From a virus (Duplodnaviria > Caudoviricetes), in IMG/VR virus record IMGVR_UViG_3300032260_000005, positions 1 to 56,348 of that record: a stretch of 56,348 nt of DNA. One strand, given 5' to 3'. Under the pieces are notes generated by a model, which did no database searches, was not told where the DNA came from, and saw nothing but the letters and a program-made list of their open reading frames with translations. Each line of letters begins with the position of its first letter. The first letter of the stretch is position 1. Positions 1-56,049 of the stretch are shown here, piece by piece. Made by a program: the position numbers and the translations under genes.

Positions 1-106
1 ATATCCATTTTCAACCTCGCGTATAACAAAGCAAATCAACTGGACGCTGAAAGCTCTGCGGGTTTTAAGTTAAGCGCCGTGGTGGCGCAAGTTATTTGCG
101 ATGTTA
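1..106. repeat. Terminal direct repeat (identical to 56243-56348); assembly circularity overlap
   Basis: First 106 nt equal last 106 nt; the cassette of ORF 56044-56271 joins attC 21-109 across the junction. Confidence 0.95.
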
Positions 107-109
107 GGC
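21..109 (+). repeat. attC-like site
   Basis: R'' GTATAAC, 5 nt, L'' AAATCAAC ... L' GTTATTT, 5 nt, R' GTTAGGC; GCGTATAAC is the exact complement of GTTATACGC at 56043. Confidence 0.9.
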
Positions 110-370: not shown

Positions 371-391
371 TCTATATATCCTCTTCGATTC

Positions 392-477
392 GCCTAACCA
401 TGCAAATCAATCTGAGCAGGTTAGTCTTTAGTTCTGTTCTGGCACTGAGTGTGCCAGCTTATTTGCAATGGTTATGT
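392..477 (+). repeat. attC-like site
   Basis: GCCTAAC ... CTTATTT ... GTTATGT; R'' complements GTTAGGC at 103. Confidence 0.85.
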
Positions 478-741
478 GTAGCCACGCCTTATTGCTTCGT
501 CACGCCTTTCAGCGTCCTGTCTGTTCCAGTGGTCGTATTCCGCATTGTGCCGATCAAGCTCCATCTGGTTTTGCCTGCAGCATTCTTCGCAGTAGCCTTC
601 GTGCAATTCTTCCATAGGCTCTCCGCATTGAGAGCAGTGCAAATCACACATAACAATGGCATCAACGGTGGACGCACCTAGTCTGTGCGCCAATTCAAGT
701 GCTTCTTGGTCTTCGTGTTTTACTGCTGGTTTATGCTTCAT
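472..741 (-). CDS. Cassette ORF, Zn-finger-like hypothetical protein; starts inside its attC
   Basis: CSQC...CEECC; GGAGG RBS and ATG lie within attC 648-780. Confidence 0.7.
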   Translation of the reverse strand: MKHKPAVKHEDQEALELAHRLGASTVDAIVMCDLHCSQCGEPMEELHEGYCEECCRQNQMELDRHNAEYDHWNRQDAERRDEAIRRGYT

Positions 742-780
742 CGTATTTCCTCCGGTGCGCCAGTTATGCTGTCGTTATGT
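648..780 (+). repeat. attC-like site
   Basis: ACATAAC, GCATCAAC ... GTTATGC, GTTATGT; ACACATAAC complements GTTATGTGT at 471. Confidence 0.85.
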
Positions 781-996
781 GTCATAAAAGCTTTCAAACC
801 CAATGCAACTAACAACCACCTTAAAACCTTCGTGCATTTCAGCGCGTTTATCAACATGCCTGCAATCCTGCAAAACGCGAGTGCATGTTTTGCACAATGA
901 TGTTGGGTATATTGAGTCCCTTATTGCCGCTTTGCCACATAACACGCCGTTCGAGGTGACAGAATCACCATCAGCGCCTTGTTCTGAATCTTTCAC
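775..996 (-). CDS. Cassette ORF, Cys-rich hypothetical protein
   Basis: 73 aa; GTG start within attC 937-1023; stop in R' at 774. Confidence 0.55.
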   Translation of the reverse strand: MKDSEQGADGDSVTSNGVLCGKAAIRDSIYPTSLCKTCTRVLQDCRHVDKRAEMHEGFKVVVSCIGFESFYDT

Positions 997-1023
997 GTCT
1001 GCACCTCAACTAAAATGTTATAC
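937..1023 (+). repeat. attC-like site (identical to 4007-4093)
   Basis: ACATAAC, GTTCGAGG ... CCTCAAC, GTTATAC. Confidence 0.9.
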
Positions 1024-1308: not shown

Positions 1309-1327
1309 ATCTGCGTGTCCTGTTGCT

Positions 1328-1412
1328 GAATAACAATCACTTCAATTTGACTGCGTGGTCATCGGCGCTCTTTTAGCTATCTGTGGGCAGCAGCTCATTA
1401 GCAACGTTATAC
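1328..1412 (+). repeat. attC-like site (eroded L boxes)
   Basis: GAATAAC ... GTTATAC; CTGAATAAC is 8/9 complementary to GTTATACAG at 1017. Confidence 0.65.
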
Positions 1413-1672: not shown

Positions 1673-1796
1673 TTATAACAAGTCGCATTAACTCGGACAC
1701 ATGCCGCAGTGTCCGGCGATCAAGTTTAGTTAAATGTTTCCGTCGTTCTATTCGTATTCAGTGTTGGCATGTGCTCGGTTATGCGCAACGTTATGC
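1673..1796 (+). repeat. attC-like site
   Basis: TTATAAC, GCATTAAC, CACATGCC ... GGCATGTG, GTTATGC, GTTATGC. Confidence 0.85.
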
Positions 1797-2030: not shown

Positions 2031-2115
2031 GCATAACCAGCCGTTCGAGGTGACAGCGAGGTCAATGCGGTTTGTTCTGGTTTCGGTGGGCTGCACCTCA
2101 ACTAAAATGTTATGC
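2031..2115 (+). repeat. attC-like site (arms shared with 937 and 4007)
   Basis: GCATAAC, GTTCGAGG ... CCTCAAC, GTTATGC; R'' complements R' at 1790. Confidence 0.9.
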
Positions 2116-2154
2116 CGCACACTCTACCAGCTGTGCGGCTTGCCTGTTTTGCTA

Positions 2155-2905: not shown

Positions 2906-2930
2906 AGCTTTATAGTCCTGTGTCAGTCCG

Positions 2931-3020
2931 GCCTAACCAGGCAAATCCAGCGGATGCCGATAGTCGTGTGCGTTTTAGTCTATTACCGCGCTAGGCACAG
3001 CTGATTATGCAACGTTATGA
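2931..3020 (+). repeat. attC-like site
   Basis: GCCTAAC, AAATCCAG ... CTGATTA, GTTATGA. Confidence 0.8.
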
Positions 3021-3377
3021 CTCTTCTTCATACCGTGCTTTAAACCATGTTGCTATTCTGTTGCGTTCAGCATCATCAAGCATCTCATCAAACTCCCACA
3101 TGATCTGATTCAGGCAGTCCATGCAGTCAAGCTCGGCATCACGATTGATTAGGTTTCGAGTGATGCTCATCTTTACCGGCCCAGGTTTGCGCATCTCTTC
3201 GATTAATTTAGCATCAGCCTTATATCCGTCAAATGATTCTGAGCCGTCACAAAACAACTCACTTGATCGACCAGAAAATCCTTTTAAGAATTGCTCAACT
3301 TCTGGTTCTGAATCAGCATTTGCAACAATGTGGTAAACAGTAAAATCTGTCATAACAATTAGCTCCAGGCGACGCAA
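3015..3377 (-). CDS. Cassette ORF, hypothetical protein (alternative start ATG at 3353, overlapping R'')
   Basis: 120 aa; stop in R' at 3014. Confidence 0.65.
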   Translation of the reverse strand: MRRLELIVMTDFTVYHIVANADSEPEVEQFLKGFSGRSSELFCDGSESFDGYKADAKLIEEMRKPGPVKMSITRNLINRDAELDCMDCLNQIMWEFDEMLDDAERNRIATWFKARYEEES

Positions 3378-3451
3378 TAAAGCGGCGCGGTTATCAGTTA
3401 AATTTGAGGTTCAGTAGGCGCTTTATTGCGCCCCTGAGCATGGTGTTAGAA
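3350..3451 (+). repeat. attC-like site
   Basis: TCATAAC, GCTCCAGG, CGCAATAAAGC ... GCTTTATTGCG, CCTGAGC, GTTAGAA. Confidence 0.9.
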
Positions 3452-3718
3452 TGCATCTCGCTCTATGCTCTCTATCTTGCCTCGGCGCTTTTCTATCCGC
3501 TGAGACCATCCGCAATGGGCGCATTCTTTAACTATTGATTGTCTAGCTGGCCCGTTGTACCAAGTACCGTCCGTATCTTTCCATGCCGTGTGGCAATCAG
3601 CCGTCACGCTACCATGCGCATTCCAATGAGGGCACCCGCACTTCGGGCATTCTAACAAGCACGTCAACTCTGACGCTGTGCTGTCACGTGGTTTCTTCTC
3701 TTCGTTTGAGTCAGTCAT
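3446..3718 (-). CDS. Cassette ORF, Zn-ribbon protein; starts inside its attC
   Basis: CPKC ... CAHC; GGGAG RBS within attC 3650-3772. Confidence 0.7.
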   Translation of the reverse strand: MTDSNEEKKPRDSTASELTCLLECPKCGCPHWNAHGSVTADCHTAWKDTDGTWYNGPARQSIVKECAHCGWSQRIEKRRGKIESIERDAF

Positions 3719-3772
3719 TGCCTATCTCCCTTTGCGGCCTAATAGGGGCGCAGGTTACGTTTATCGTTATGT
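3650..3772 (+). repeat. attC-like site
   Basis: TTCTAAC, ACGTCAAC ... GTTACGT, GTTATGT; GCATTCTAAC complements GTTAGAATGC at 3445 (10 bp). Confidence 0.9.
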
Positions 3773-4066
3773 GGCTTTATCGCATGCGTCTAATGCTTCT
3801 TTGGCCCAGGCTTTATATTCGTAGTCCATAGCATTAACACTCACTATCTTTTCCAGGTGGTGTCTATATACCCTGGCCTCAATCTCAAGGTTTCTTGCAA
3901 TGGTTCTGAGTTCTTCATAGCTTTTGCATCGCTGGTACTTGTTGCAAGCCCATGTCTCATTCCCGTCTTCATCAATCCTGGTATAGCGGCCCTGCTTACC
4001 GCAGCCACATAACACGCCGTTCGAGGTGACAGAATCACCATCAGCGCCTTGTTCTGAATCTTTCAC
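3767..4066 (-). CDS. Cassette ORF, hypothetical protein; first 21 aa identical to ORF 775-996
   Basis: MKDSEQGADGDSVTSNGVLCG encoded by the duplicated attC. Confidence 0.65.
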   Translation of the reverse strand: MKDSEQGADGDSVTSNGVLCGCGKQGRYTRIDEDGNETWACNKYQRCKSYEELRTIARNLEIEARVYRHHLEKIVSVNAMDYEYKAWAKEALDACDKAT

Positions 4067-4093
4067 GTCTGCACCTCAACTAAAATGTTATAC
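4007..4093 (+). repeat. attC-like site (identical to 937-1023)
   Basis: AGCCACATAAC complements GTTATGTGGCT at 3766 (11 bp). Confidence 0.9.
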
Positions 4094-4318: not shown

Positions 4319-4407
4319 GTATAACAAAGGCAATTAACAATGGACGTATTCTTCATTTGTGGCAATTTCTAGCACCCAGCGCCGCCAGTTATTAGCCAAC
4401 GTTAGGC
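4319..4407 (+). repeat. attC-like site
   Basis: GTATAAC ... GTTAGGC; GTGCTGTATAAC complements GTTATACAGCAC at 4087 (12 bp). Confidence 0.88.
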
Positions 4408-4638
4408 ATCAAGCCTGAATGTCATCGCTTCGTTCTCAGTTATACCCTCATGTATGCAATCTGCGAAATACACAATCCCGTCTGTTGCGCGGATAAACCT
4501 CCATCCAAAAAACGAATCAGCACCTATATTGCCAGGAAGGTCATCCGGGTATTCAATAGCGTTTACTGCAAGCCATCTCATCGCATGCAATCTATTTGGC
4601 TTGTTCTTTGGTCTGAATTTCAATATTTTCGCAATCAT
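4402..4638 (-). CDS. Cassette ORF, hypothetical protein
   Basis: 78 aa; stop in R' at 4401. Confidence 0.65.
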   Translation of the reverse strand: MIAKILKFRPKNKPNRLHAMRWLAVNAIEYPDDLPGNIGADSFFGWRFIRATDGIVYFADCIHEGITENEAMTFRLDA

Positions 4639-4642
4639 AATA

Positions 4643-4810
4643 TCAATCCCATATCACCTGCGCAGTCATTTCACATTGGCGCTTCTTTTTGTCCAGAAAA
4701 ACAGCAACCCTCTGTCTTCCAGCATGCCCCGCTCCATCACTAAATCTTCTGCTTTCGTAGCGCAAGAGTTTGTTTGGTGGTCTGCAATAAACTGGTATAT
4801 ATGGTTTCAT
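4643..4810 (-). CDS. Small ORF missing from track (55 aa, MKPYIPVYCRPP...)
   Basis: Hand translation; fills the cassette upstream of 4638. Confidence 0.4.
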   Translation of the reverse strand: MKPYIPVYCRPPNKLLRYESRRFSDGAGHAGRQRVAVFLDKKKRQCEMTAQVIWD

Positions 4811-4817
4811 GTTCGAT

Positions 4818-4900
4818 GCCTAACAAGTAAAATCTAGCTGACGGGTCAAGTTCAGCGGCAAAATATACACCCAGAGCCGCAACTAATTTTCATGTTAGCC
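4818..4900 (+). repeat. attC-like site
   Basis: GCCTAAC, AAATCTAG ... CTAATTT, GTTAGCC; GATGCCTAAC complements GTTAGGCATC at 4401. Confidence 0.85.
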
Positions 4901-5380
4901 TTCAACGATGCGGCGCAAGCTAATCGGTGAGTATTCGTGTTCAATGAACACCAGCTTATGCCGCGGGTCTGTTTTATCTTCCGGGTGGTGTCCAGTATTG
5001 TGGTGGTGTCCATGCACGTTAATATAATCACCATCGTCATCAATTGGCTTATGGGTAAGCACGATAGTTTTGCCAAAAATATTAAGTTGCACTCTGTCAC
5101 CTACAAAGTCCCACCCGTTCCGGTGATACCATGTGTTGCTCTTTCTGTCATGGTTCCCGCGAATAAGCCACTTTTTACCAGAGCACATCATCATGAATTT
5201 TTGATGCCAGTACTCATCTTTACCTATGCAAAAGTCACCAAGGTGAATTAGCACATCATCAATGTGTATTTGACTATGTAGCGTTTTAAAAATGCGCTCT
5301 TCAAAATCCTGCGGGCGCTGGCAATACTCATGCATTTGCTCATCCCCAAAGTGCGTATCTGTAATTACCCAATAATTCAT
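4895..5380 (-). CDS. Calcineurin-like metallophosphoesterase
   Basis: DTHFG, HLGDF, RGNHD, THKP, HGHHH motifs. Confidence 0.9.
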   Translation of the reverse strand: MNYWVITDTHFGDEQMHEYCQRPQDFEERIFKTLHSQIHIDDVLIHLGDFCIGKDEYWHQKFMMMCSGKKWLIRGNHDRKSNTWYHRNGWDFVGDRVQLNIFGKTIVLTHKPIDDDGDYINVHGHHHNTGHHPEDKTDPRHKLVFIEHEYSPISLRRIVEG

Positions 5381-5390
5381 TTCAAATCCA

Positions 5391-5467
5391 GGCTAATCAG
5401 CGATGTTATTCCTACCCAGAAAGCCCCGTAAATGGGGCGGGCTAGAGATAATCAAGGACTGTTAAAA
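5391..5467 (+). repeat. Degenerate attC-like site at promoter-proximal end of array
   Basis: AGGCTAAT is 1 nt from the expected AGGCTAAC; GTTAAAA at 5461 contains the stop of the next ORF; arms poorly paired. Confidence 0.4.
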
Positions 5468-5827
5468 TCGCCTCTCATCTAAGTATTGCCGACTTCTAAA
5501 CTCTACGCCATTATTGTAAGCATCAACAGATGCCTCCATGTCCTCGTTTATATCCTCTGTTGCTCTGTGTTCTGCGTAGGCGTCGCGCACCTCGCTTAAT
5601 GAATCGTGCATGGCCTCAACCTCATCAGAGCTTGGTGTATTCCCTGTCAGGAATACCCTGCAAGCCCGTAGAGCAATAATGTAAACCATTCGCTCATCTG
5701 AGCTGCTTCCAATAATCTTTTGCTCTCCATCCGTCCATTCAACCCCATCCATAAGTAGTTTACCTGTCTGGTCATCATCAATCCGCTGTTTCCATTCTTT
5801 GATTTGTTCTTTAGTAGGCGTAATCAT
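5462..5827 (-). CDS. Hypothetical protein, first gene of leftward early operon
   Basis: 121 aa, AAGGA RBS, downstream of promoter. Confidence 0.7.
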   Translation of the reverse strand: MITPTKEQIKEWKQRIDDDQTGKLLMDGVEWTDGEQKIIGSSSDERMVYIIALRACRVFLTGNTPSSDEVEAMHDSLSEVRDAYAEHRATEDINEDMEASVDAYNNGVEFRSRQYLDERRF

Positions 5828-5862
5828 GTGGTTATCCTTTTGTTTTATTGCTGGTGTGATTG

Positions 5863-5892
5863 TACTTTAGCTCAAAAAGCTTACCCGGTCAA
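5863..5892 (-). promoter_or_regulatory. Leftward sigma70-like promoter
   Basis: TTGACC-17 nt-TAAAGT on - strand. Confidence 0.65.
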
Positions 5893-5916
5893 CGCATTAA
5901 CATGCGTATAGCGCAC

Positions 5917-5945
5917 TTGACTGCTTTTTAGATATAGGCAATAAT
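5917..5945 (+). promoter_or_regulatory. Rightward sigma70-like promoter
   Basis: TTGACT-17 nt-AATAAT; ATG follows 6 nt later (leaderless-like). Confidence 0.65.
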
Positions 5946-5951
5946 GAAAGC

Positions 5952-6188
5952 ATGAAAAAGATAATGTCAGCTTCCAGAGTAGTGCGAGACCTTCAACAGA
6001 GGGTTAAGGTTCTAAAAAAGAACGGCGTAACCTACAAGGCCTTACAGGATAAAGCCGGAGTAAAAGCACGGTGGTTTTTATATTTCAGGAATAGGGAAGA
6101 CCCAAATACTGAAACGCGTCTATTAGACGCCCTTGAAAGGGCGGTGGTGTATTATGAAGCTGCTTTTCAGCAGAAAGAGAATACCTGA
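5952..6188 (+). CDS. Cro/XRE-like helix-turn-helix regulator
   Basis: GVTYKALQDKAGVKARWF ... NTETRLLDALERA pattern; position at divergent promoters. Confidence 0.6.
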   Translation: MKKIMSASRVVRDLQQRVKVLKKNGVTYKALQDKAGVKARWFLYFRNREDPNTETRLLDALERAVVYYEAAFQQKENT

Positions 6189-6205
6189 AATAGCTGGTTT
6201 CTTCG

Positions 6206-6340
6206 GAAGAACGATTAGCTAACCTGCACAGCGAGGAATTAACTATGTACTGTGATAAATGTGGAAGATTTTGGGAAGAGTGCGAATGTGACGAAAAGGC
6301 GCAAAAGAAAGCTGTGTCTGCGTTGAGCGGCTTGTTAGAA
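6206..6340 (-). repeat. attC-like site, last of array C; non-consensus R' (GTTCTTC) at junction to backbone
   Basis: On + strand: GAAGAAC-5 nt-GCTAAC ... GTTGAGC-5 nt-GTTAGAA. Confidence 0.7.
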
Positions 6341-6613
6341 GGCACTTGCACCAGTGCGGCATCTTGCGAGAACCAGGAGCCTGTTACTGTTGAGAGCTTG
6401 CTTGCAGCTAAGAAAATGATGGATGAAAAATTCCCCGACCCTATTGCACAATGCATGAGGGAAAAAGGATTTGACCCGAATAATGGCGGCATTCTCTTTT
6501 TACACGAATCAATGAGGAGAGAAATGCCATTTATACCTAGCTATGTGCGTTTCTCTTCACTAATTGATGCGCCCCTATTGATTGACAGCAGGGTAGTGCC
6601 GGGTGCCTTCTAA
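6245..6613 (+). CDS. Cassette ORF, hypothetical protein; starts inside its attC
   Basis: GAGGA RBS; CDKC..CEC N-terminus; TAA at crossover 6611-6613. Confidence 0.65.
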   Translation: MYCDKCGRFWEECECDEKAQKKAVSALSGLLEGTCTSAASCENQEPVTVESLLAAKKMMDEKFPDPIAQCMREKGFDPNNGGILFLHESMRREMPFIPSYVRFSSLIDAPLLIDSRVVPGAF

Positions 6614-6696
6614 CGCCCAAAATAACTGGGCGCGTGACCAAGTTTAAATAGAAGCGGGGCGCTTTATTCGCTCCATGTTGATTTTGATTGTTAGAG
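6608..6696 (-). repeat. attC-like site
   Basis: TTCTAAC, AAATAAC ... GTTGATTT, GTTAGAG; GTGCCTTCTAAC complements GTTAGAAGGCAC at 6334 (12 bp). Confidence 0.9.
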
Positions 6697-6832
6697 GCGC
6701 TACGGAGTAACAAATGAGACAAGATTGCCATTATTACCATGAGTGCAAATTGCCAGCCCAACTCTGTAACTCAAAGTGCAAAGAGTTTAAAAAGGCAGAT
6801 TGGGGTGGGATTAAACCAAAGAGGAAAAAGAA

Positions 6833-7021
6833 ATGAGCGACCATAAATATTGGGATGAGGATGTAGAAAAAGCCGTAAACAATGCATGCATTGGCAATGA
6901 AGACTCTTACGAGATTCAGTTTAAAGAGCCAGTGGAGGCATTCAATATCCATAAAGATGATGTTATTCACTTAGCAAAGTGTTTTGGGCTTGCTGTTTAT
7001 GAGAAAGATACTGCCCTCTAA
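6833..7021 (+). CDS. Cassette ORF, hypothetical protein (preceded by a 40-aa Cys-rich ORF at 6714-6836)
   Basis: 62 aa, GAGG RBS, TAA at crossover. Confidence 0.65.
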   Translation: MSDHKYWDEDVEKAVNNACIGNEDSYEIQFKEPVEAFNIHKDDVIHLAKCFGLAVYEKDTAL

Positions 7022-7139
7022 CATCGTTATTAACCGGCGCTTGCGCCGAAAAGGAGCCATAAAATGAATGAGAACGAAACCGCAGAAACAACGCCAGCCG
7101 CTGAGCTTGAAGCGTCCGCGTTGAATAACCTTGTTATGC
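7016..7139 (-). repeat. attC-like site containing RBS and start codon
   Basis: CTCTAAC, TATTAAC ... GTTGAATA, GTTATGC; AAGGAG and ATG 7064 lie inside. Confidence 0.9.
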
Positions 7140-7372
7140 GAACCCATGAGACTATTTATCTAATCCCTACTGAGGAAGGTATGGAGTGGTGTGTTGGCCC
7201 AGCACCCGGTAACGATATGGAAGAAAATTACTCGGTCAGATATGTTAGATCTGACATCCATGAAATGGAGCTAAAGCGACTGAGCGACATGCTTTTAATT
7301 GAGCGAAAGGCACATATCAGAGTGAAAGCACGGGTTGAAGAGGCTGTGGCCACACTTAATAAAATATACTGA
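7064..7372 (+). CDS. Cassette ORF, hypothetical protein
   Basis: 102 aa; N-terminal about 25 aa encoded by attC. Confidence 0.7.
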   Translation: MNENETAETTPAAELEASALNNLVMRTHETIYLIPTEEGMEWCVGPAPGNDMEENYSVRYVRSDIHEMELKRLSDMLLIERKAHIRVKARVEEAVATLNKIY

Positions 7373-7373
7373 C

Positions 7374-7462
7374 GCATAACGATTAATTGAGGAGCGCGGC
7401 GCTCCCAAGCTTGAACAAAACGCCGCTAATTAAACCGCGTCTGCTCGAATGACGTGTTATAC
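7374..7462 (-). repeat. attC-like site
   Basis: GCATAAC, ATTGAG ... CTCGAAT, GTTATAC. Confidence 0.85.
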
Positions 7463-7483
7463 AGCGAGATTATTTAGGAGACT

Positions 7484-7807
7484 ATGATGGATATACAAAG
7501 ACTGAGAAACCTAACCACAGGTAGATTGCACACGGAAATGGGCCATATTTACGAAGACCTCGGCATGCTCACTGGTGAAGAAGGATTGATGACTCATATG
7601 CTGCCAAGAGCAATGAAGGCGGTTGAGCCATGGCTGCGAGAGAACGTGAAGGATGGGCGATTTTGGGATGACGAATACGACACCACCCATGTTGGCGAGT
7701 ATGACTTGCCAGTACCAACTGAGGCAGACCAGAAAGTTTTCCTTGAAAGATATGCAGAAATGCCAAACCCATTAGCTGGAAAAGAGGTGATAGGGGCAGC
7801 TGTATAA
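7484..7807 (+). CDS. Cassette ORF, hypothetical phage protein
   Basis: 107 aa, AGGAG RBS, TAA at crossover. Confidence 0.75.
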   Translation: MMDIQRLRNLTTGRLHTEMGHIYEDLGMLTGEEGLMTHMLPRAMKAVEPWLRENVKDGRFWDDEYDTTHVGEYDLPVPTEADQKVFLERYAEMPNPLAGKEVIGAAV

Positions 7808-7933
7808 CATCGCAATTAACCCGACCACGGGCAGACAAATAAGGACTATATGAAATGACTAAATCGAACGAAAGCAACCAAACAGAAAACGAGCACCACA
7901 GTAGTGGGTCGGCGTTGAATTGCCTTGTTATGC
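7802..7933 (-). repeat. attC-like site containing RBS and start codon
   Basis: GTATAAC, AATTAAC ... GTTGAATT, GTTATGC; GCTGTATAAC complements GTTATACAGC at 7456. Confidence 0.9.
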
Positions 7934-8217
7934 CTACCGATATGAAGGTGCATCTTGTAGAGGTTTTTTATCAGCGCGGTGACCCTGCTTTTACATGCGG
8001 ATCAATTGGCCACTGGTGTATAGAGAATTTATTAACCATTGAAGCTCAAGTTAATGATGGGATGGATGATGAAGACAAGGCCAATCTTTTTACTGATGGA
8101 GATGGATCATATCTTTTTGACATGAGTTTTGAGCCGCCAGATTATGAGTTAGGCGGCATAGGTGATGGATACTGGTATTTCGAGAAAGTTAAATACAAGC
8201 CTGTGATTAAGGCATAA
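7855..8217 (+). CDS. Cassette ORF, acidic hypothetical protein
   Basis: 120 aa; starts in attC; TAA at crossover. Confidence 0.7.
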   Translation: MTKSNESNQTENEHHSSGSALNCLVMPTDMKVHLVEVFYQRGDPAFTCGSIGHWCIENLLTIEAQVNDGMDDEDKANLFTDGDGSYLFDMSFEPPDYELGGIGDGYWYFEKVKYKPVIKA

Positions 8218-8298
8218 CGTTTAGTTGAGGTGCTGCCAGCACCGACAATAAAGAAAGGCGCTAATGGTGGCGCAGTCAGCTCTAACGGCTTGTTAGGG
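8212..8298 (-). repeat. attC-like site (same family as 937/2031/4007, inverted)
   Basis: GCATAAC, TTTAGTTGAGGTGC ... GTTAGGG. Confidence 0.8.
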
Positions 8299-8319
8299 TG
8301 CATTTTAAGAGTAACGATC

Positions 8320-8520
8320 ATGACAAAAGAAGAATTAGTAGATGAATTCTCAGAGCTTGCAAAGGCTGACATAGAGGGGGCTTTACAGGTTATCACCGGC
8401 CTTTTTGTTGGACTGAATGTGGCGTTTGTAGAGCTACGGGGTAACGACGGGGATGGCAGTAAACAGATAACAATAGATGGGCCTGAGGGGCAGCGAAAGA
8501 TTACGATCCATGCAGCATAA
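8320..8520 (+). CDS. Cassette ORF, hypothetical protein
   Basis: 66 aa from ATG 8320 (track start 8230 lies in attC). Confidence 0.6.
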   Translation: MTKEELVDEFSELAKADIEGALQVITGLFVGLNVAFVELRGNDGDGSKQITIDGPEGQRKITIHAA

Positions 8521-8598
8521 CACTTAATTAATTTGCGGCGCATTGATGCATATACGACCGCGAATGAAGAATACGTCAAATTTAATGTTTTGTTATTT
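8515..8598 (-). repeat. attC-like site (partly eroded)
   Basis: GCATAAC ... GTTATTT with AT-rich arms. Confidence 0.7.
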
Positions 8599-8619
8599 TG
8601 CGAGATCGAGGAAACAGAA

Positions 8620-8853
8620 ATGAATAGAAGATTATTTGTGAAAGGTGCGGTTGCCTTAGCTATTGTCCCAGGTGTTGTTTTGAGTGCCAATAAACCAAGA
8701 TTGCACACTTTTTCCAACCTAGTTGGTGTAGACGGCAAACCGATCACTGTGGAGATATACCCAGAGCAAGAGGCATCATTTGCAACTGCTGGCAGGGCCG
8801 GGAGACACAGCGCATTAAACCTGGACAAGCTATGCAGGGCACGGAGGGACTAA
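8620..8853 (+). CDS. Cassette ORF with twin-arginine signal-like N-terminus
   Basis: MNRRLFVKGAVALAIVPGVVLSA; GAGGA RBS; followed by 41-aa membrane ORF 8853-8978. Confidence 0.6.
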   Translation: MNRRLFVKGAVALAIVPGVVLSANKPRLHTFSNLVGVDGKPITVEIYPEQEASFATAGRAGRHSALNLDKLCRARRD

Positions 8854-8980
8854 TGCTAGCGTATCTAGAAATGGTATTGACAGCGTTTATATTTATTGCA
8901 ATAGGGGCTATTAGCGTAGAGCTGATAGCAGTAAAGCTAGGGCTGTTACCAGGGGTGAAACTCCCTTGGGACGATTAGCC

Positions 8981-9068
8981 AAATAACATTCAAAATCAGG
9001 AGCGGCACTCGGTGCCTGCTTAAAAACCACAACGCTTAAACCCGTCTGCTGAATTTTGTTGGTTAGGC
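8981..9068 (-). repeat. attC-like site
   Basis: AAATAAC, CAAAATCAG ... CTGAATTTTG, GTTAGGC. Confidence 0.8.
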
Positions 9069-9099
9069 GATTTGATGAACCGGAAACTAGGAGCTGAAA

Positions 9100-9330
9100 A
9101 TGGAAAAACAAGATATTAAGAAGGGCGACTTGGTGCAACTGAACCCGGAAACCGTGGGTAATAAGATGTTCACAGCATGCATTATGGTAATTACTGAGCC
9201 TAAGCCATGGGGCGCGCAAGGGTATGTGCAAGCTTTTGGCGTTGAAGGTGGGCGCGGTGGCCAAGCATATTACAGGGCTAAATGGGAAGAGATGGAGTTA
9301 GTAGGGCATGCTGAATGGGTTGCAGCCTAA
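9100..9330 (+). CDS. Cassette ORF, small SH3/KOW-like beta-barrel protein
   Basis: IKKGDLVQL N-terminus; AGGAG RBS; TAA at crossover. Confidence 0.7.
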   Translation: MEKQDIKKGDLVQLNPETVGNKMFTACIMVITEPKPWGAQGYVQAFGVEGGRGGQAYYRAKWEEMELVGHAEWVAA

Positions 9331-9448
9331 CATCGTGCTTAACCTGGCCACGGCCAGACAACACTGGACACTATGAATATGAACAGTACAACTGAAACCA
9401 AAACCAAACACCGCAGTAGTGGATCAGCGTTGAAGCACCTGGTTATGC
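9325..9448 (-). repeat. attC-like site containing start codon (related to 7802-7933)
   Basis: GCCTAAC, GCTTAAC ... GTTGAAGC, GTTATGC. Confidence 0.9.
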
Positions 9449-9864
9449 GTGATCCTAGCGCCCAAATTAAAGCATGGATTAATGATAGCTATGAGCAATG
9501 GCAATTTTGGCTAACTGTAGTTTCTGCTGAAAATTATGATGGACTAGATAAAACAAAAGAGCAGGCAGAAAACTTGGTTGGCTACTACGAAGGCCAATAT
9601 GACCTAGCTTGTGATGTGCGTGATTTTGTTTCCCAGCAAACAGTAAGTGATGGCAACGCTTTTGACCTTGGTACAACTTTTAAAAAACAAGGTCGCAAAG
9701 ACAAGGATCGAATCTACACGGTAGAAGATATTTACACCACAACCAATATAGCTGGGCATGTAGTTAAGCAGCGGTACGTTGCATCATCCACCTTCTGCGG
9801 GCAGAAAGTAACTGATAGAGATATACCCAGCGCAACTATAGCTAGGGGACGGTGTGACGCATAA
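9373..9864 (+). CDS. Cassette ORF, hypothetical protein
   Basis: 163 aa; starts in attC; TAA at crossover. Confidence 0.7.
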   Translation: MNMNSTTETKTKHRSSGSALKHLVMRDPSAQIKAWINDSYEQWQFWLTVVSAENYDGLDKTKEQAENLVGYYEGQYDLACDVRDFVSQQTVSDGNAFDLGTTFKKQGRKDKDRIYTVEDIYTTTNIAGHVVKQRYVASSTFCGQKVTDRDIPSATIARGRCDA

Positions 9865-9947
9865 CAACGTAAATAACCGGGCGCGTGCCCAACTTTAAAT
9901 AAAACCACTACTGACGGGGCGCTCCGAGTTGATTTGCCTTGTTAGGT
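9859..9947 (-). repeat. attC-like site (related to 6608-6696)
   Basis: GCATAAC, AAATAAC ... GTTGATTT, GTTAGGT. Confidence 0.9.
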
Positions 9948-9963
9948 TACAGGAGAAACAACC

Positions 9964-10266
9964 ATGAAAGCTATAGGCTACACAGTAAGCACCGTTGTAA
10001 TAATGTTTTTGCTATGCGTATTTAGTGGATACACGTTAAGCATTTTGTGGCAGTGGTTTGTTATGCCAATATTCCCTGCCCCAGAGCTTACGATACCGAC
10101 CGCTATCGGCCTTGCCATGATAGTTACCTATTTGACTCATCAGGACACCAAGAGCGATACAGAAGGGAAAGGATATGGAGAGATACTTCTGGAGATGACA
10201 TTAAAAGGCATTGGCAGACCAGCTGGCGCTTTATTCTTTGGCTGGATAGTAACTCTGTTTTTGTAA
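9964..10266 (+). CDS. Cassette ORF, membrane protein (about 3 TM segments)
   Basis: Hydrophobic stretches; AGGAG RBS. Confidence 0.75.
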   Translation: MKAIGYTVSTVVIMFLLCVFSGYTLSILWQWFVMPIFPAPELTIPTAIGLAMIVTYLTHQDTKSDTEGKGYGEILLEMTLKGIGRPAGALFFGWIVTLFL

Positions 10267-10363
10267 CCTAACAGGTAATATTCGGCACTCGACTGAATTA
10301 CTCAGGTATTAATCGCTCCGCAGCCTTAACTGTTGTGCTGATTGCGGGATATTCGGCAGGCAA
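10267..10363 (-). repeat. Candidate attI-like site, inverted copy of 49210-49307
   Basis: Near-identical 97-nt inverted repeat whose identity ends at the GTTAGG core; TGTAACCTAAC complements GTTAGGTTACA at 9941. Confidence 0.65.
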
Positions 10364-10382
10364 TAATTAGGAGAAAATTAAC

Positions 10383-10601
10383 ATGGCAAAAATCAGAATC
10401 TCCAAATTTAGTTTCCGCAAAGAATGCGAGGAAACAAAAACTATCACCGCTTTCGTGCTGTTTAGAGGCCATAACGTAGGCATAGCAAGGGTTAATGGCA
10501 AGTGGTGGTTTGCTAATGACACGCTACCTGAGCTGACAAAAGAGGAGCAGGAATATTGCGCACAAATGAACTTCGAGGCAGAACAATGCGATACCCAATA
10601 A
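10383..10601 (+). CDS. Hypothetical protein
   Basis: 72 aa, AGGAG RBS. Confidence 0.6.
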   Translation: MAKIRISKFSFRKECEETKTITAFVLFRGHNVGIARVNGKWWFANDTLPELTKEEQEYCAQMNFEAEQCDTQ

Positions 10602-12215: not shown

Positions 12216-12509
12216 ATGGATGACAAATTAAAAGTGAAATTATACTTTCTGATGGGTGGCAAGCATCAGAAAAATGAGATTGAAGTAGAGACACATGAAC
12301 CATACACGCCTGAAGACTGGGGGGTTACTGTTGCAACAACAACGATAGAGATACCTTTGCCAGATGTCAGTAGGGCAGAAATGACTAATAAAATGGTCGG
12401 AATTCTGGAGGCCAAAAAGAAGAAAAAGCAGGCCGAATGTCAGCTTGAACTTAATGAGATCGACAAGAAAATAGGCGAATTACTAGCACTCGAAGCGCCA
12501 AAGGAATAG
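12216..12509 (+). CDS. Hypothetical phage protein with coiled-coil C-terminus
   Basis: 97 aa, GGAG RBS. Confidence 0.7.
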   Translation: MDDKLKVKLYFLMGGKHQKNEIEVETHEPYTPEDWGVTVATTTIEIPLPDVSRAEMTNKMVGILEAKKKKKQAECQLELNEIDKKIGELLALEAPKE

Positions 12510-12516
12510 CAATCAT

Positions 12517-12602
12517 GGCAGCGAACAGCAACCGGCAAACCTGCAACTAAGTAGTGAGGTCGGAAGGGCGTACATTGGGTTTGAGTCCTGACGCTGGCAC
12601 CA
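12517..12602 (+). ncRNA. tRNA-like element or pseudo-tRNA
   Basis: GGCAGCG/CGCTGGC stem (6/7) + A + CCA; T-arm-like GGGTTTGAGTCCT; D and anticodon arms non-canonical. Confidence 0.4.
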
Positions 12603-12627
12603 AACAAGCAACTATGGAGAAACGAGC

Positions 12628-12831
12628 GTGATCACCAACTTCGGAGACAGGAAAGAGTGTCAACAAACGGGGATTATTACGGCTTTTGTAGACGATGATG
12701 ACCATCCATGCGCGGTAGTTAGGCAGGGAATGGTTTGGATGTTTATGGATGAAAGCCTCCGCATTCTAACAACAGAAGAGCAGGAATACTGTTCAATAGA
12801 GAACTTTAAGATGGAGAATGGAGATGAATGA
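12628..12831 (+). CDS. Hypothetical protein
   Basis: 67 aa, GGAG RBS, GTG start. Confidence 0.55.
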   Translation: MITNFGDRKECQQTGIITAFVDDDDHPCAVVRQGMVWMFMDESLRILTTEEQEYCSIENFKMENGDE

Positions 12832-12968
12832 ATTCGCAGATGACTTTCTAAGAGGTCAGCAAGATTGCATTAATGGAAAGCCTCACAAGCAAGGTGAATC
12901 AGATGCATATGATAGAGGCTTTGCTACTCAGTATGCAATGGAGCAGCAGCTAACAGAGGCCACTAAAA

Positions 12969-13454
12969 ATGACAGATGACCATCAAGATCTAGCGGATAG
13001 GCTGAAAGAGCCGTTTCCAGTTAAATCGATACATTGGCGAATTGGCGCAAGAACGAGAGATAAGACCAAAGGGATAGCCCTCGCTTATATCGATGCCAGG
13101 GACGTTATGCACAGGCTTGACACAGTGGCTGGGCCTCTTAAATGGCAGTGCAGATATTCACACGTTACAGCTAAAGGCGTTATCTGTGAGATTGGTATAC
13201 ATGTTGATGGTGAGTGGATATGGAGGGCAAATGGCGCTGGTGACACAGATGTTGAGGCTGAAAAGGGCGCAATGTCAGACGCATTTAAACGAGCCGCTGT
13301 GATGTGGGGTATTGGTCGTTATCTCTATATGCTGCCTAATACGTGGGTAGCTCTAGAAAATGAAGGGAAGAAGCTCTCAGGCACACCTAATCTGCCTGCA
13401 TGGGCTACACCTGAAGGCTATAAGGCAGCACTTGAAAAAAGGAGCGCAAAATGA
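12969..13454 (+). CDS. Rad52/Sak-like single-strand annealing recombinase
   Basis: LAYIDARDVMHRLD ... EAEKGAMSDAFKRAAVMWGIGRYLY. Confidence 0.9.
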   Translation: MTDDHQDLADRLKEPFPVKSIHWRIGARTRDKTKGIALAYIDARDVMHRLDTVAGPLKWQCRYSHVTAKGVICEIGIHVDGEWIWRANGAGDTDVEAEKGAMSDAFKRAAVMWGIGRYLYMLPNTWVALENEGKKLSGTPNLPAWATPEGYKAALEKRSAK

Positions 13455-14134: not shown

Positions 14135-14223
14135 CCCATGAAACCAGAAACAAAACTAGCACAAAGAGCTGGGCTGCTCTATTTCACGTTGGCATTTCTT
14201 TCTATGCCTGTGGGTGGCTACTG

Positions 14224-49209: not shown

Positions 49210-49308
49210 TTGCCTGCCGAATATCCCGCAATCAGCACAACAGTTAAGGCTTGAGGCTGATTTAATACCTGAGTAATTCAGTCGAGTGCCGAATATTACC
49301 TGTTAGGC
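49210..49308 (+). repeat. Candidate attI-like site heading array A
   Basis: Inverted copy of 10267-10363; internal direct repeat TGCCGAATAT (49215, 49287); ends in GTTAGGC. Confidence 0.65.
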
Positions 49309-50291: not shown

Positions 50292-50354
50292 GCCTAACCA
50301 GGCAAATCAACGCGGACAGCAAAAAGCGTTGCCGGTTATTTGCGGATGTTATGT
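50292..50354 (+). repeat. attC-like site (63 nt)
   Basis: GCCTAAC, AAATCAAC ... GTTATTT, GTTATGT; CGGCCTAAC complements GTTAGGCCG at 49302. Confidence 0.92.
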
Positions 50355-50563: not shown

Positions 50564-50686
50564 ACATAACAAGCCAATTAAAGCTGACTTGCTACCGCGT
50601 AGTTTAATTTAAAGTTTCTAGTGTTCGTTTTGTTTCAGTGTTTCCAGCGTCATCAATTCGCAAGCAGTTTATTGGTGTCGTTATGC
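50564..50686 (+). repeat. attC-like site
   Basis: ACATAAC, CAATTAAA ... TTTATTG, GTTATGC; ACACATAAC complements GTTATGTGT at 50348. Confidence 0.85.
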
Positions 50687-54013: not shown

Positions 54014-54085
54014 CTTTTCGCCCCTCCATGCCTGGTTTTTATAAGGCTATCAACTTGTTATAAATAGTTACGTTTAAACGCATGC

Positions 54086-54106
54086 AGGATATTACATGTT
54101 AGGCCG
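54086..54106 (+). repeat. Third attI-like core heading array B
   Basis: GGATATTACATGTTAGGCCG vs GAATATTACCTGTTAGGCCG at 49291; GTTAGGCC complements GGCCTAAC at 54515. Confidence 0.5.
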
Positions 54107-54515: not shown

Positions 54516-54575
54516 GCCTAACAAAACGCTGCACCAGACACTCGCTTCGCTCGTGCAGTGAGCTAAGTGTTAGGC
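54516..54575 (+). repeat. attC-like site (60 nt, classical short type)
   Basis: GCCTAAC AAAAC GCTGCAC ... GTGAGC TAAGT GTTAGGC. Confidence 0.9.
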
Positions 54576-55979: not shown

Positions 55980-56049
55980 CCCTAACAAAGCGCTGCACCA
56001 GACATTCGCTGCGCTGCGCTTGCTCATGCATGTGAGCTAAGTGTTATAC
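55980..56049 (+). repeat. attC-like site (arms shared with 54516)
   Basis: CCCTAAC AAAGC GCTGCAC ... GTGAGC TAAGT GTTATAC. Confidence 0.9.

What the first reader, a model, noticed from the sequence alone, without database searches (positions are those of the whole stretch)
7016..9448. attC sites double as translation-initiation regions and encode a shared N-terminal peptide
Several longer sites carry an RBS and start codon in their central region (741 in 648-780; 3718 in 3650-3772; 6245; 7064; 7855; 9373), so otherwise unrelated proteins begin with a polar leader followed by the translated L''/R'' arm: ASALNNLVMR, GSALNCLVMP, GSALKHLVMR, ASTVDAIVMC, ASELTCLLEC, VSALSGLLEG, VTSNGVLCG. A recombination site supplying the RBS and N-terminus would let new DNA become an expressed gene, and mRNA hairpin folding could couple translation to the upstream gene.
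Basis: partly seen in the sequence, partly recalled or inferred. Interest (0 to 1): 0.8.

Follow-up and report, generated by a model that had tools for sequence, protein, structure and literature searches.

The report
Phage gene cassettes start inside attC hairpins
In this phage the small early genes are separated by integron-type recombination hairpins, and in about a third of them the hairpin loop carries the ribosome-binding site and start codon, so that translation reads through one arm of the recombination site into the gene.

Summary
The window is a complete 56.3-kb phage genome. Its two divergent early arms are arrays of tiny genes separated by 27 attC-like imperfect palindromes. In 8 of the 27, a start codon in the loop reads in frame through the 3' arm into the next ORF; 7 of these have a Shine-Dalgarno core. 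In 17 of 17 related sites from this and 14 other contigs, the loop ATG, the GTT of the 3' box and the only long downstream frame share one phase, and 8 of the 17 have no ATG in the box. Five homologues of one such protein lack the leader, and homology begins at the box.

The sites are attC by structure: boxes flanking each ORF are complementary, extrahelical G..N..T bases are present, and the same two-armed pattern occurs in 83 bacterial contigs. They are inverted, however: the phage gene-sense strand is the attC bottom strand. The predicted crossover box (RYYYAA|C) therefore holds the previous gene's TAA stop, and each attC mostly travels with the ORF downstream of it. The cassettes mostly bring their own start, rather than a site donating one to new DNA.

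No integrase gene was found in this phage or in three relatives. Translation and recombination are inferred, not shown.

The parts
6217..6340 (+). P0, first site of the right arm. It is a half site with only a good 3' arm. Loop ATG at 6245 (SD GAGG, 8 nt) encodes a Cys-rich leader and reads into ORF 6245-6613.
   Evidence: related full site in L144
6608..6696 (+). P1, attC-like site with no loop start. The TAA in its 5' box is the stop of the 6245-6613 ORF.
   Evidence: z -2.70
7016..7139 (+). P2, attC-like site. Loop SD AGGAG, 7 nt before ATG 7064. The leader MNENETAETTPAAELEASALNNLVM reads through the 3' arm. Extra bases G, C, T lie in the 3' arm.
7374..7462 (+). P3, attC-like site. The downstream gene 7484-7807 (DUF7736) has its own start.
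7802..7933 (+). P4, attC-like site. Loop SD AAGGA, 9 nt before ATG 7855. The leader ends ...HHSSGSALNCLVM.
8212..8298 (+). P5, attC-like site. The downstream gene probably starts at ATG 8320.
8515..8598 (+). P6, attC-like site. Identity with relative G001 begins inside its 3' arm at 8575. This is the one boundary that does not fit a crossover at the 5' box.
8981..9068 (+). P7, attC-like site. In G001 and in run X2 the cassette before it joins the array-end element directly at this AAC.
9325..9448 (+). P8, attC-like site. Loop ATG at 9373 (or 9379) with a weak SD. The leader ends ...HRSSGSALKHLVM.
9859..9947 (+). P9, attC-like site of the AAATAAC...GTTGATTT family that is also found in bacteria.
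4818..4900 (-). M2, attC-like site of the left arm.
   Evidence: z -2.48
4319..4407 (-). M3, attC-like site. The downstream gene has its own SD and ATG.
4007..4093 (-). M4, 87-nt site identical to M11. Loop GTG at 4066 (SD GAGG, 7 nt, predicted to be paired in the stem). The leader MKDSEQGADGDSVTSNGV reads into ORF 3767-4066.
   Evidence: phrog_23713 aligns from residue 19
3650..3772 (-). M5, attC-like site. Loop SD GGAG, 7 nt before ATG 3718. The box is GTTAGAA and the ORF has no Met after it.
   Evidence: homologues lack the leader
3350..3451 (-). M6, attC-like site. ATG lies inside the 3' box (GTTATGA), with GGAG in the L arm 9 nt upstream.
   Evidence: z -3.68
2931..3020 (-). M7, attC-like site, followed by three genes without a site between them.
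2031..2115 (-). M8, a variant of the M4/M11 site without a usable loop start.
1673..1796 (-). M9, a long site (124 nt) without a loop start. The downstream gene has its own SD and GTG at 1657.
1328..1412 (-). M10, a degenerate site. Its own arm partner ranks 9 of 26.
937..1023 (-). M11, a copy of M4. Loop GTG at 996 gives the same leader to a different ORF (775-996).
648..780 (-). M12, attC-like site. Loop SD GGAGG, 7 nt before ATG 741. The leader ends ...GASTVDAIVM.
392..477 (-). M13, attC-like site.
   Evidence: z -3.19
21..109 (-). M14, attC-like site. It lies partly in the 106-bp terminal repeat, so it is also seen at the window's right end.
55980..56049 (-). M15, a short site with poor arm match (own partner ranks 12 of 26).
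54516..54575 (-). M16, a short site related to M15.
50564..50686 (-). M18, a long site (123 nt) without a loop start. The downstream gene has its own SD and ATG at 50543.
50292..50354 (-). M19, a 63-nt site of the bacterial-type family. It precedes the N6_N4 DNA methylase cassette 49303-50274.
10270..10287 (+). Array-end motif AAC|AGGTAATATTCGGCA. The last cassette of the right arm joins it exactly after AAC. It is part of a roughly 100-bp repeat, 10266-10370.
49287..49304 (-). Second copy of the array-end motif, inverted, after the methylase cassette. The repeat spans about 49205-49309.
54083..54100 (-). Third, variant array-end motif AAC|ATGTAATATCCTGCA. In run X2 the 6245 cassette is joined to this same sequence.
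5828..5951 (.). Divergent intergenic region between the two arms, with promoter-like hexamers facing both ways. These are consensus matches only.

Best explanation
The window is a complete phage genome. Its two divergent early operons are built from integron-type gene cassettes, and no integrase gene was detected. In integron terms this is a very large cluster of attC sites lacking an integrase (a CALIN).

The cassettes are inverted relative to bacterial ones: the phage genes lie on the strand that is the attC bottom strand. Read in the gene sense, each cassette has four parts:
1. The C that follows the crossover point.
2. The attC hairpin.
3. The GTTRRRY box.
4. The ORF, ending in RYYY-TAA. 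That end is the next crossover box, so the stop codon is part of the recombination box.

Because the hairpin lies in front of its own gene, its variable loop is free to serve as 5' UTR. In 8 of the 27 sites the loop holds a start codon and an A-rich, polar leader of about 10-20 codons, and in 7 of those 8 a Shine-Dalgarno core precedes the start. The ribosome then translates the 3' arm (stem, L'' box with the extrahelical G, spacer, R'' box) into the body of the protein. The conserved DNA arm thus becomes the shared peptide S-A-L-N-x-L-V-(M).

Shown by sequence: the anatomy, the phase relations, the cassette signature, the inverted orientation, cassette turnover between near-identical phages, and the leader-less homologues.

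Inferred: that ribosomes really start in the loop, and that a host integron integrase cuts at RYYYAA|C of the gene-sense strand.
For: attC identity
- All 27 sites have TAAC...GTTA boxes.
- The inner arms are complementary in a site-specific way. The own partner is the best of 26 candidates in 15 of 26 sites, with a mean score of 16.7 against 8.4 for cross-pairs.
- Unpaired extra bases lie 89 to 28 on the 3' arm, typically G in the L box, a base 3 bp on, and T a further 3 bp on. This matches the G16/N20/T23-24 description in Nivina 2016.
- Boxes flanking one ORF are complementary at 5.7 of 7 variable positions. Boxes of one site match at 3.3 of 7. Permutation p <= 5e-5.
- The two-armed pattern of four window sites occurs in 83 bacterial contigs, mostly marine Gammaproteobacteria. 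My own arithmetic puts the chance expectation at about 0.1.

Inversion
- Bacterial flanks are open on the opposite strand 110 times against 12.
- In the phage, the 5'-box TAA ends an ORF of at least 60 codons in 20 of 27 sites. The opposite-strand control gives 4 of 27.
- Family hits lie on the gene-sense strand.

The unit is attC plus the downstream ORF
- Window 1020-467 equals L136 1369-1922 (99.3%) and runs from |TAAC to TAAC|.
- The L136/L142 block starts at the 5' box.
- In L139 and L141 the same upstream ORF is followed by different sites after AAC.
- A contig of run X2 holds 6210-6614 without a difference and then other sequence after AAC.
- Three different last cassettes join the end motif right after AAC.

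Turnover
- G001 is 99-100% identical to window 5142-6227 and 8575-8988 but has a different cassette set between them.

Loop starts
- In 17 of 17 related sites the ATG, the GTT and the long ORF share one phase. 15 of the 17 have an SD core, and 8 of the 17 lack a box ATG.
- ATG-to-GTT distances are 63, 69, 72 and 87 nt.
- A 3-nt indel separates the two Cys-rich leaders, window 6245 and L144.
- Five homologues of the 3446-3718 protein (61-70% identical) start M-x5-ECPKCG and lack the 23-residue leader.
- phrog_23713 aligns from residue 19 of the 4066 protein.
- The SD and AUG are predicted mostly unpaired in 4 of 7 folded sites.
- Leaders are 45% A and 11% T, against 31% and 24% for the whole arm.
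Against: - There are no translation data of any kind, and no RNA run was listed.
- The site at 9373 and one relative (L132) have no recognisable SD core.
- Substitutions between related leaders are only weakly enriched at third codon positions, so amino-acid constraint on the leader is weak.
- Fold energies are unremarkable. 18 of 20 sites have negative z-scores, but only 5 are at or below -2.4, and the 6245 site is at +0.99.
- 15 of 27 3' boxes read GTTAT, which departs from GTTRRRY.
- No tyrosine recombinase gene was found in the window or in G001-G003, so the recombinase is hypothetical.
- No attC covariance model could be run, and Rfam gave nothing.
- Against a strict attC-plus-ORF unit: identity between the window and G001 begins inside the 3' arm of the 8515-8598 site, with unrelated loops.
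- The 118-nt core of the 7016-7139 site is identical in L136 while both flanks differ.
- The core of the 7802-7933 site is about 93% identical in G001 and G002, again with different ORFs on both sides.
- At the promoter end of the array the three variants already differ a few bases before the AAC.
Confidence: 0.7

Rival explanations
1. The sites are in canonical orientation in the functional sense: the crossover is at G|TT of the 3' box, each attC belongs to the upstream cassette, and it donates RBS, start and leader to whichever cassette is inserted behind it. The shared phase at the box makes cassettes interchangeable.
For: - The identical 118-nt core precedes unrelated ORFs in the window and in L136.
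- The 7802-7933 core precedes different ORFs in the window, G001, G002, L135, L137 and L142.
- The homologous ORFs of window 7064 and L143 carry different leaders, and the alignment starts at SALNNLVM.
- Window/G001 identity starts 17 nt before the GTT of the 8515-8598 site.
- All 17 subfamily members use phase 0 at GTT.
Against: - The extrahelical bases and the bacterial gene orientation make the gene-sense strand the bottom strand, which is cleaved at AA|C in the other box.
- Five block boundaries lie at the 5' box.
- In L139 and L141 the upstream ORF is not linked to the site behind it.
- Arrays end exactly after an AAC without a complete last site.
- Near-identical attC cores on unrelated cassettes are, from my recollection, also the rule in Vibrio chromosomal integrons. 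They therefore do not prove exchange at the 3' box.
Confidence: 0.15
2. The palindromes are not integrase substrates. They are phage-specific hairpins (processing, termination or regulatory elements) whose conserved arms act as short homologies for the phage's own Erf/exonuclease recombination, as proposed for PeSL elements of T4-type phages. The loop starts are ordinary gene starts that happen to lie between the arms.
For: - No integrase gene was found in the window or in three relatives.
- The phage encodes an Erf-like annealing protein and an exonuclease.
- One boundary lies inside an arm.
- Site cores are shared between unrelated genes.
- Fold z-scores are modest.
Against: - Homologous recombination gives no reason for the boxes flanking each ORF to be complementary to each other rather than to their own site.
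- It gives no reason for G..N..T bulges on one arm.
- It gives no reason for the same arms to occur in 83 bacterial contigs with genes on the other strand.
- None of the 8 promoter-like matches in 5300-10500 lies in a site, and promoter-like and terminator-like matches are not enriched there.
Confidence: 0.1
3. The loop starts are unused. Translation begins at the ATG of GTTATG or further downstream, and the open upstream frame is a by-product of the conserved arm.
For: - Five window ORFs (7064, 7855, 9373, 741 and the one at 3353) have an in-frame ATG in the box.
- The 9373 start lacks an SD.
- Leaders show weak amino-acid constraint.
Against: - 8 of 17 related sites have no ATG in the box, yet keep phase and an open frame.
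- The 3446-3718 ORF has no Met after the box.
- No SD core precedes the box ATG at 7136, 7930 or 9445, while strong ones precede the loop ATGs at 7064 and 7855.
- The opposite-strand control gives 0 read-through starts.
Confidence: 0.05

Closest known systems
Integron attC sites and clusters of attC sites lacking an integrase (CALINs), including those reported in phages (Qi et al. 2023, PMC9892861; outline and section 3.4 read)
   Same: Imperfect palindromes with RYYYAAC/GTTRRRY boxes, L boxes, extrahelical bases and a variable loop. ORFs are flanked by complementary boxes, there is no integrase nearby, and a DNA methylase sits among the cassettes, as in the phage CALINs of that paper.
   Different: [quoted passage not shown] Here 27 sites build both early arms. 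The genes lie on the bottom strand. Stop codons sit in the crossover box, and starts sit in the loop. The supplementary tables of that paper could not be opened, so a similar phage in its list cannot be excluded.
Synthetic attC sites embedded in protein-coding sequence (Nivina et al. 2020, PMC7439510; passages read)
   Same: One DNA stretch is both a foldable attC and an in-frame peptide-coding sequence. That work showed experimentally that this is compatible with recombination and with protein function.
   Different: Those sites were designed, lie inside a gene as linkers, and contain no translation start. The phage sites are natural, carry a start codon (and usually an SD) in the loop, and only the 3' half is translated.
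ORF-11 in attI1 and short ORFs inside attC sites that relieve the mRNA hairpin (Hanau-Bercot 2002 and Jacquier 2009, seen only as described in the review PMC8876359)
   Same: A translation-initiation region inside an integron recombination site helps to express the cassette behind it. The attC hairpin in the mRNA is a barrier that translation opens.
   Different: Those ORFs are short and act by termination-reinitiation coupling. Here the ORF is fused in frame to the cassette protein and supplies its N-terminus. The mRNA also carries the bottom-strand sequence, not the top-strand one.
PeSL mobile regulatory cassettes of T4-type phages (PMC2839356, PMC4122927; search listing and abstract starts only)
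   Same: Repeated stem-loop elements between small, variable early phage genes mark the boundaries of gene gain, loss and replacement.
   Different: PeSLs are promoter-terminator motifs thought to recombine by homology. The elements here contain no promoter-like match and carry the box complementarity and bulges of site-specific attC sites.
Vibrio cholerae repeats (VCRs) of chromosomal integrons
   Same: Long sites of about 120-130 nt, nearly identical to one another, on hundreds of unrelated small cassettes.
   Different: VCR cassettes mostly have genes on the top strand with the site downstream. They sit next to intIA and attIA.

Membership tests
integron attC recombination site | Terminal boxes RYYYAAC and GTTRRRY with invariant AAC and GTT | tested here: met
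   All 27 sites have xxxTAAC and GTTAxxx. Deviation: 15 of 27 3' boxes have T at position 5 (GTTAT), which is not a purine.
integron attC recombination site | Second pair of inverted repeats (L boxes) separated from the R boxes by an unpaired spacer of about 4-6 nt, then a stem and a variable terminal structure | tested here: met
   The own partner is the best of 26 in 15 of 26 sites. Site lengths are 60-133 nt. Sites 6217-6340, 1328-1412 and 55980-56049 fit poorly.
integron attC recombination site | Extrahelical bases on the arm opposite the AAC triplet of the recombined (bottom) strand: G in the L box and T about 6 bp further in | tested here: met
   Extra bases lie 89 to 28 on the 3' arm of the gene-sense strand. 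A G...T or G.N.T pattern is seen in most well-aligned sites, for example 7016-7139 with G, C, T. The definition comes from Nivina 2016.
integron attC recombination site | Cassette signature: the box at the start of a cassette is complementary to the box at its end, not to the other box of the same site | tested here: met
   5.7 of 7 positions for 25 ORF-flanking pairs, against 3.3 of 7 for 26 same-site pairs. Permutation p <= 5e-5. One pair was scored one base out of register, which lowers the observed value.
integron attC recombination site | Recombined by an integron integrase as folded single strand, with cleavage between A and C of the bottom-strand AAC | not testable with these tools
   Indirect only: five block boundaries at the 5' box and one boundary that does not fit.
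integron attC recombination site | Match to the attC covariance model used by IntegronFinder or HattCI | not testable with these tools
   No such model is held. Rfam gave no match in the window. As a substitute, the two-armed pattern of four window sites was found in 83 bacterial contigs.
complete integron | intI tyrosine recombinase gene, attI site and Pc promoter next to the array | tested here: not met
   PF00589 gave no match at E <= 1 in the window or E <= 0.1 in G001-G003, while all 14 control genomes matched. The array-end motif is only a candidate attI.
canonical integron cassette | ORF on the attC top strand with the attC downstream of it | tested here: not met
   The phage ORFs lie on the bottom-strand side. 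Bacterial sites of the same family have flanking genes on the other strand, 110 to 12.
CALIN (cluster of attC sites lacking an integrase) | Two or more attC sites without a neighbouring integron integrase gene | tested here: met
   27 sites and no integrase gene in the whole 56.3-kb genome. The definition is as worded in the abstract of PMC7923331 and in Qi 2023.
ORF-11-type translational coupling element | Short ORF inside the site that terminates at or before the cassette's own start | tested here: not met
   The loop ORFs continue for 53-93 codons beyond the site, in frame with the cassette ORF.
PeSL promoter-stem-loop cassette | A sigma-70 early promoter embedded in the repeat | tested here: not met
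   None of the 8 promoter-like matches in 5300-10500 lies inside a site, and matches are not enriched (8 found against 9.2 expected). This was a consensus scan only.

The most novel reading that the evidence does not exclude
A family of phages that encode no integrase of their own keeps its early genes as a private pool of self-expressing integron cassettes and lets the host's integron integrase shuffle them.
- The cassettes are inverted. A phage cassette caught by the host integron would therefore be antisense to Pc and silent, and a bacterial cassette caught by the phage would be silent too.
- The hairpin loop has become the 5' UTR and start, and the bottom-strand arm is translated.
- Because all members of a site family use the same codon phase at the GTT box, rarer exchanges at that box would also swap leaders and protein bodies productively, much like exon shuffling.
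- The conserved motif after the last AAC of each array (AAC|AKGTAATATYCKGCA) would be a phage attI.
Probability: 0.3. Interest if true: 0.9.

Novelty: new variant of a known kind. Interest (0 to 1): 0.78.

Why it matters
Integron attC sites are understood as non-coding structures downstream of promoterless genes, and their hairpins are seen as obstacles to translation. Here the same structure is used the other way round:
- It lies upstream of its gene, on the bottom strand.
- Its loop serves as ribosome-binding site and start.
- One arm is translated.
- The stop codon of the previous gene sits inside the crossover box.

This is a natural counterpart of the engineered coding attC sites of Nivina 2020. 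It shows how far a structure-specific recombination site can overlap with expression signals.

It also suggests that whole early regions of some marine-sediment phages are cassette arrays that turn over between otherwise near-identical genomes, presumably through a host integrase. That would link integrons to phage accessory-gene evolution, including a DNA methylase cassette. It gives directly testable predictions: strand preference, crossover position and N-termini.

Tried and rejected
- Rfam (gathering thresholds) found nothing in the window.
- The phage collection gave no DNA match, near or distant. The helicase protein gave only hits of at most 31.5% identity among the 25 records listed, with all 2,388 matching records below 60%. 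The phage therefore has no close isolated relative there.
- Portal-based relatives in IMG/VR are only 40-41% identical. The two I scanned (L003, L005) have no such sites.
- My first site finder was too strict, giving 2 sites. Ranking AAC/GTT pairs by fold energy did not separate sites from background. The 10-mer box search at 9 of 10 was no better than shuffles in total count, 136 against about 101. Only the GTTA/TAAC pairs stood out, and these were later tested properly.
None of them had the partner arm, so they are chance matches.
- Codon-position counts between related leaders were inconclusive.
- The longest-open-frame test that worked for bacteria (110 to 12) was noisy on the phage (18 to 9 of 54 flanks), because cassettes are short and antisense frames are long. 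It was replaced by the stop-in-box test.
- The search for homologues of the 7064 protein returned only the protein itself.
- No RNA holder was listed for the stretch.
- Parts of the stretch without contig cover in runs X1-X3, and the low-support joints 6235>6304, 6633>9871, 7038>7114, 7139>8210 and 9103>10267 (sides of 22-26 letters), were not used as evidence.
- The automated site finder on relatives is less sensitive than hand curation: it found 20 of 27 window sites and flagged 3 of the 8 loop starts. It was used only qualitatively.
- Supplementary tables of Qi 2023, which list the 17 phage CALINs, could not be opened. They might name a phage with a similar array.
- Literature: six searches turned up no description of attC loops carrying an in-frame start, or of inverted self-expressing cassettes in phages. 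This covers only the held open-access library.

Full report
**What the window is.** The window is one whole virus record of 56,348 bases. IMG/VR classes it as having direct terminal repeats, and the repeat is 106 bp. It encodes a portal, a large terminase, tail fibres, an Erf-like annealing protein, an exonuclease and a helicase. It has no close relative among deposited phages. Small genes run leftward from about 5827, through the ends of the record, to about 49300. Others run rightward from 5952 to about 10270. Between these genes lie imperfect palindromes of 60-133 nt that begin xxxTAAC and end GTTAxxx. I curated 27 of them.

**The observation.** Eight of the 27 sites have a start codon in the central loop whose frame stays open through the 3' arm and at least 53 codons beyond the site:

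| Start | Codon | SD core | Spacing |
|---|---|---|---|
| 6245 | ATG | GAGG | 8 nt |
| 7064 | ATG | AGGAG | 7 nt |
| 7855 | ATG | AAGGA | 9 nt |
| 9373 | ATG | none recognised | - |
| 4066 | GTG | GAGG | 7 nt |
| 3718 | ATG | GGAG | 7 nt |
| 996 | GTG | GAGG | 7 nt |
| 741 | ATG | GGAGG | 7 nt |

- One further site (3350-3451) has the ATG in the GTTATG box itself, with GGAG in the L arm.
- The other 18 sites are followed by genes with their own start.
- On the gene-sense strand, 9 of 16 SD-plus-start candidates inside sites read through. On the opposite strand, 0 of 1 does.
- Two of the eight long sites (1673-1796 and 50564-50686) have no loop start.
- The 6245 site lacks a proper 5' arm.

**Relatives.** A scan of viral contigs for the 3' arm found three relatives, whose records I fetched as G001-G003. 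A two-armed pattern for the subfamily of the 7016, 7802 and 9325 sites found 13 metagenome stretches. This gave 17 sites in all: 3 in the window and 14 elsewhere.
- The pattern specifies only the arms. Even so, all 17 have an ATG in the loop that is in phase with the GTT of the 3' box.
- In all 17 that phase is the only long open frame downstream: 31-180 codons against at most 34.
- By my reading of the printed upstream 16-mers, 15 of the 17 have an SD core.
- Eight of the 17 have no ATG in the box (GTTAGC, GTTATA, GTTATC, GTTAGT). Translation cannot begin there in those cases.
- The downstream ORFs all differ. One pair is homologous (window 7064 and L143): 55% identity starting at SALNNLVM, with unrelated leaders before it.
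- ATG-to-GTT distances are 63, 69, 72 and 87 nt.
- The Cys-rich leader of the 6245 site has a relative in L144 that differs by a 3-nt indel.

**Independent support from proteins.**
- Five database homologues of the 3446-3718 protein (61-70% identical) begin M-x5-ECPKCG and lack its 23-residue leader. Homology begins at the E encoded in the GTTAGAA box.
- A PHROG family aligns to the 4066 protein only from residue 19, which is the box.
- The leader is therefore an add-on joined at the box, and the ORF bodies are real genes.

**Are these attC sites?** By structure, yes.
- The inner arms are complementary in a site-specific way: 26 different sequences, with the own partner best in 15 of 26.
- The extra, unpaired bases lie on one arm (89 against 28). 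They typically follow the pattern G in the L box, a base 3 bp on, and T a further 3 bp on. This is the geometry described for attC bottom strands (Nivina 2016).
- The boxes on either side of one ORF are complementary to each other at 5.7 of 7 positions. The two boxes of one site match no better than random pairs, at 3.3 of 7 (p <= 5e-5). This is the signature of cassettes excised and inserted by a single crossover in the box.
- A pattern made of both arms of four window sites hit 83 bacterial contigs, mostly marine Gammaproteobacteria such as Sedimenticola, Grimontia, Psychromonas and sulfur-oxidising symbionts. By my arithmetic about 0.1 hits were expected by chance.
- Fold energies alone are weak evidence.
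- No tyrosine recombinase gene is present in the window or in three relatives, one of which is complete. The arrangement is therefore a CALIN, a class already reported in phages, where five of six tested sites were recombined by IntI1 (Qi 2023).

**Orientation.** This point changes the interpretation.
- In the phage, the arm with the extra bases is the 3' arm of the gene-sense strand, opposite the AAC triplet. That makes the gene-sense strand the bottom strand.
- Empirically, in the 82 bacterial sites oriented the same way, the longer open frames of the flanks lie on the opposite strand in 110 cases against 12.
- In the phage, the genes lie on the bottom-strand side. The TAA of the 5' box ends an ORF of at least 60 codons in 20 of 27 sites, against 4 of 27 for the mirror test. 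Family hits are on that strand too.
- The phage cassettes are therefore inverted.
- The canonical cleavage point (A|C of the bottom-strand AAC) is the box at the previous gene's stop codon, and the attC precedes its own ORF.

**Sequence comparisons that agree with this.**
- A 554-nt block, 99.3% identical between the window (1020-467) and L136, runs from one 5' box to the 5' box two cassettes later.
- The L136/L142 block begins at a 5' box.
- In L139 and L141 the same upstream ORF is followed by different sites after AAC.
- A contig of run X2 carries 6210-6614 unchanged and diverges after the AAC at 6614.
- Three different last cassettes (window 10272, window 49302, and G001) join a conserved end motif directly after AAC. 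The same joint is seen in run X2.

**Comparisons that do not fit a strict attC-plus-ORF unit.**
- The window and G001 become identical only 17 nt before the GTT of the 8515-8598 site, and the loops are unrelated.
- Identical or near-identical cores stand in front of unrelated ORFs.
- Exchange at or near the 3' box, or copying of cores, therefore also happens.

**Turnover.** G001 is 99-100% identical to the window on both sides of the right arm but holds a different set of cassettes. Other metagenomes hold further combinations.

**Likely mechanism.**
- As mRNA, each site is predicted to fold with its arms paired, at -25 to -32 kcal/mol.
- In four of the seven in-loop sites folded (7016, 7802, 3650 and 648), the SD and AUG lie in the loop with unpaired probabilities of about 0.4-0.9.
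- In the 4007 site the SD lies in the stem, with unpaired probability 0.06. Its identical copy 937 was not folded separately.
- Leaders are A-rich and T-poor: 45% and 11%, against 31% and 24% for the arm. This keeps the loop unstructured and yields Asn/Lys/Glu/Thr-rich peptides.
- My inference is that a ribosome binds in the loop and unwinds the 3' arm as it translates it. A ribosome terminating on the TAA in the 5' box would open the hairpin from the other side, which may matter for the sites with a sequestered SD.
- None of this has been measured.

**Comparison with what is known.**
- Short ORFs in attI1 and in attC sites are known to help downstream translation by termination-reinitiation (review PMC8876359).
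- Synthetic attC sites have been embedded in coding sequence (Nivina 2020).
- Phage CALINs are known (Qi 2023).
- In six searches of the held library I found no description of natural attC loops carrying an in-frame start, of stop codons built into the crossover box, or of inverted cassette arrays forming a phage's early regions.
- I therefore rate the finding as a new variant of a known kind.

Noticed in passing
window 10266-10370 (+) and 49205-49309 (-); motif also at 54083-54100 (-): A repeat of about 100 bp closes both arrays in inverted orientation. Its first 15 nt after the last AAC (AKGTAATATYCKGCA) recur at a third array end and in L012/L133 (one contig), L132, L135 and L136. It contains a direct repeat ATATTCGGCA about 85 nt apart. 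Read on the other strand it ends ...ACCTG|TTAGG, like an attI crossover. It is a candidate phage attI or late regulatory element.
   Followed up: partly
G001 (L012) 12327-14667 versus window 46962-49305: In the close relative G001 the right-arm array is followed, across the end element, by the structural module that in the window follows the left arm (98% identity). The two inverted end elements may mediate inversion or module exchange.
   Followed up: no
window 937-1023 and 4007-4093: Two identical 87-nt sites, with identity running 3 nt beyond each box, give the same 18-residue leader to two unrelated ORFs. A diverged third copy at 2031-2115 has lost the usable start.
   Followed up: partly
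window 49303-50274 (-): The last cassette of the left arm is an N6_N4 DNA methylase (Pfam E 9e-35). This echoes the methylases reported in phage CALINs.
   Followed up: partly
window 803-1333 (+), 4454-4837 (+), 361-681 (+): Long antisense open frames (176, 127 and 106 aa) run across several cassettes and sites of the left arm. I take them to be by-products of composition, but I did not test this.
   Followed up: no
window 53130-53636: About 500 bp upstream of the helicase gene has no sense-strand ORF of 45 aa or more. It may be a replication origin or regulatory region.
   Followed up: no
window 2109-2940: Three genes (2155-2355, 2352-2732, 2729-2905) lie between two sites whose flanking boxes match at only 5 of 7 positions. 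This could be a fused or multi-gene cassette.
   Followed up: no
window 6210-6223 versus G001 and run X3: At the promoter end of the right arm the three variants diverge a few bases before the first AAC box (AGCTAAC, GGCTAAC, AAATAAC). This boundary does not fit a simple crossover in the box.
   Followed up: partly
window 39541-45228 (-): A 1,895-residue virion protein matches phrog_616 and phrog_22602. It is unrelated to the finding.
   Followed up: no
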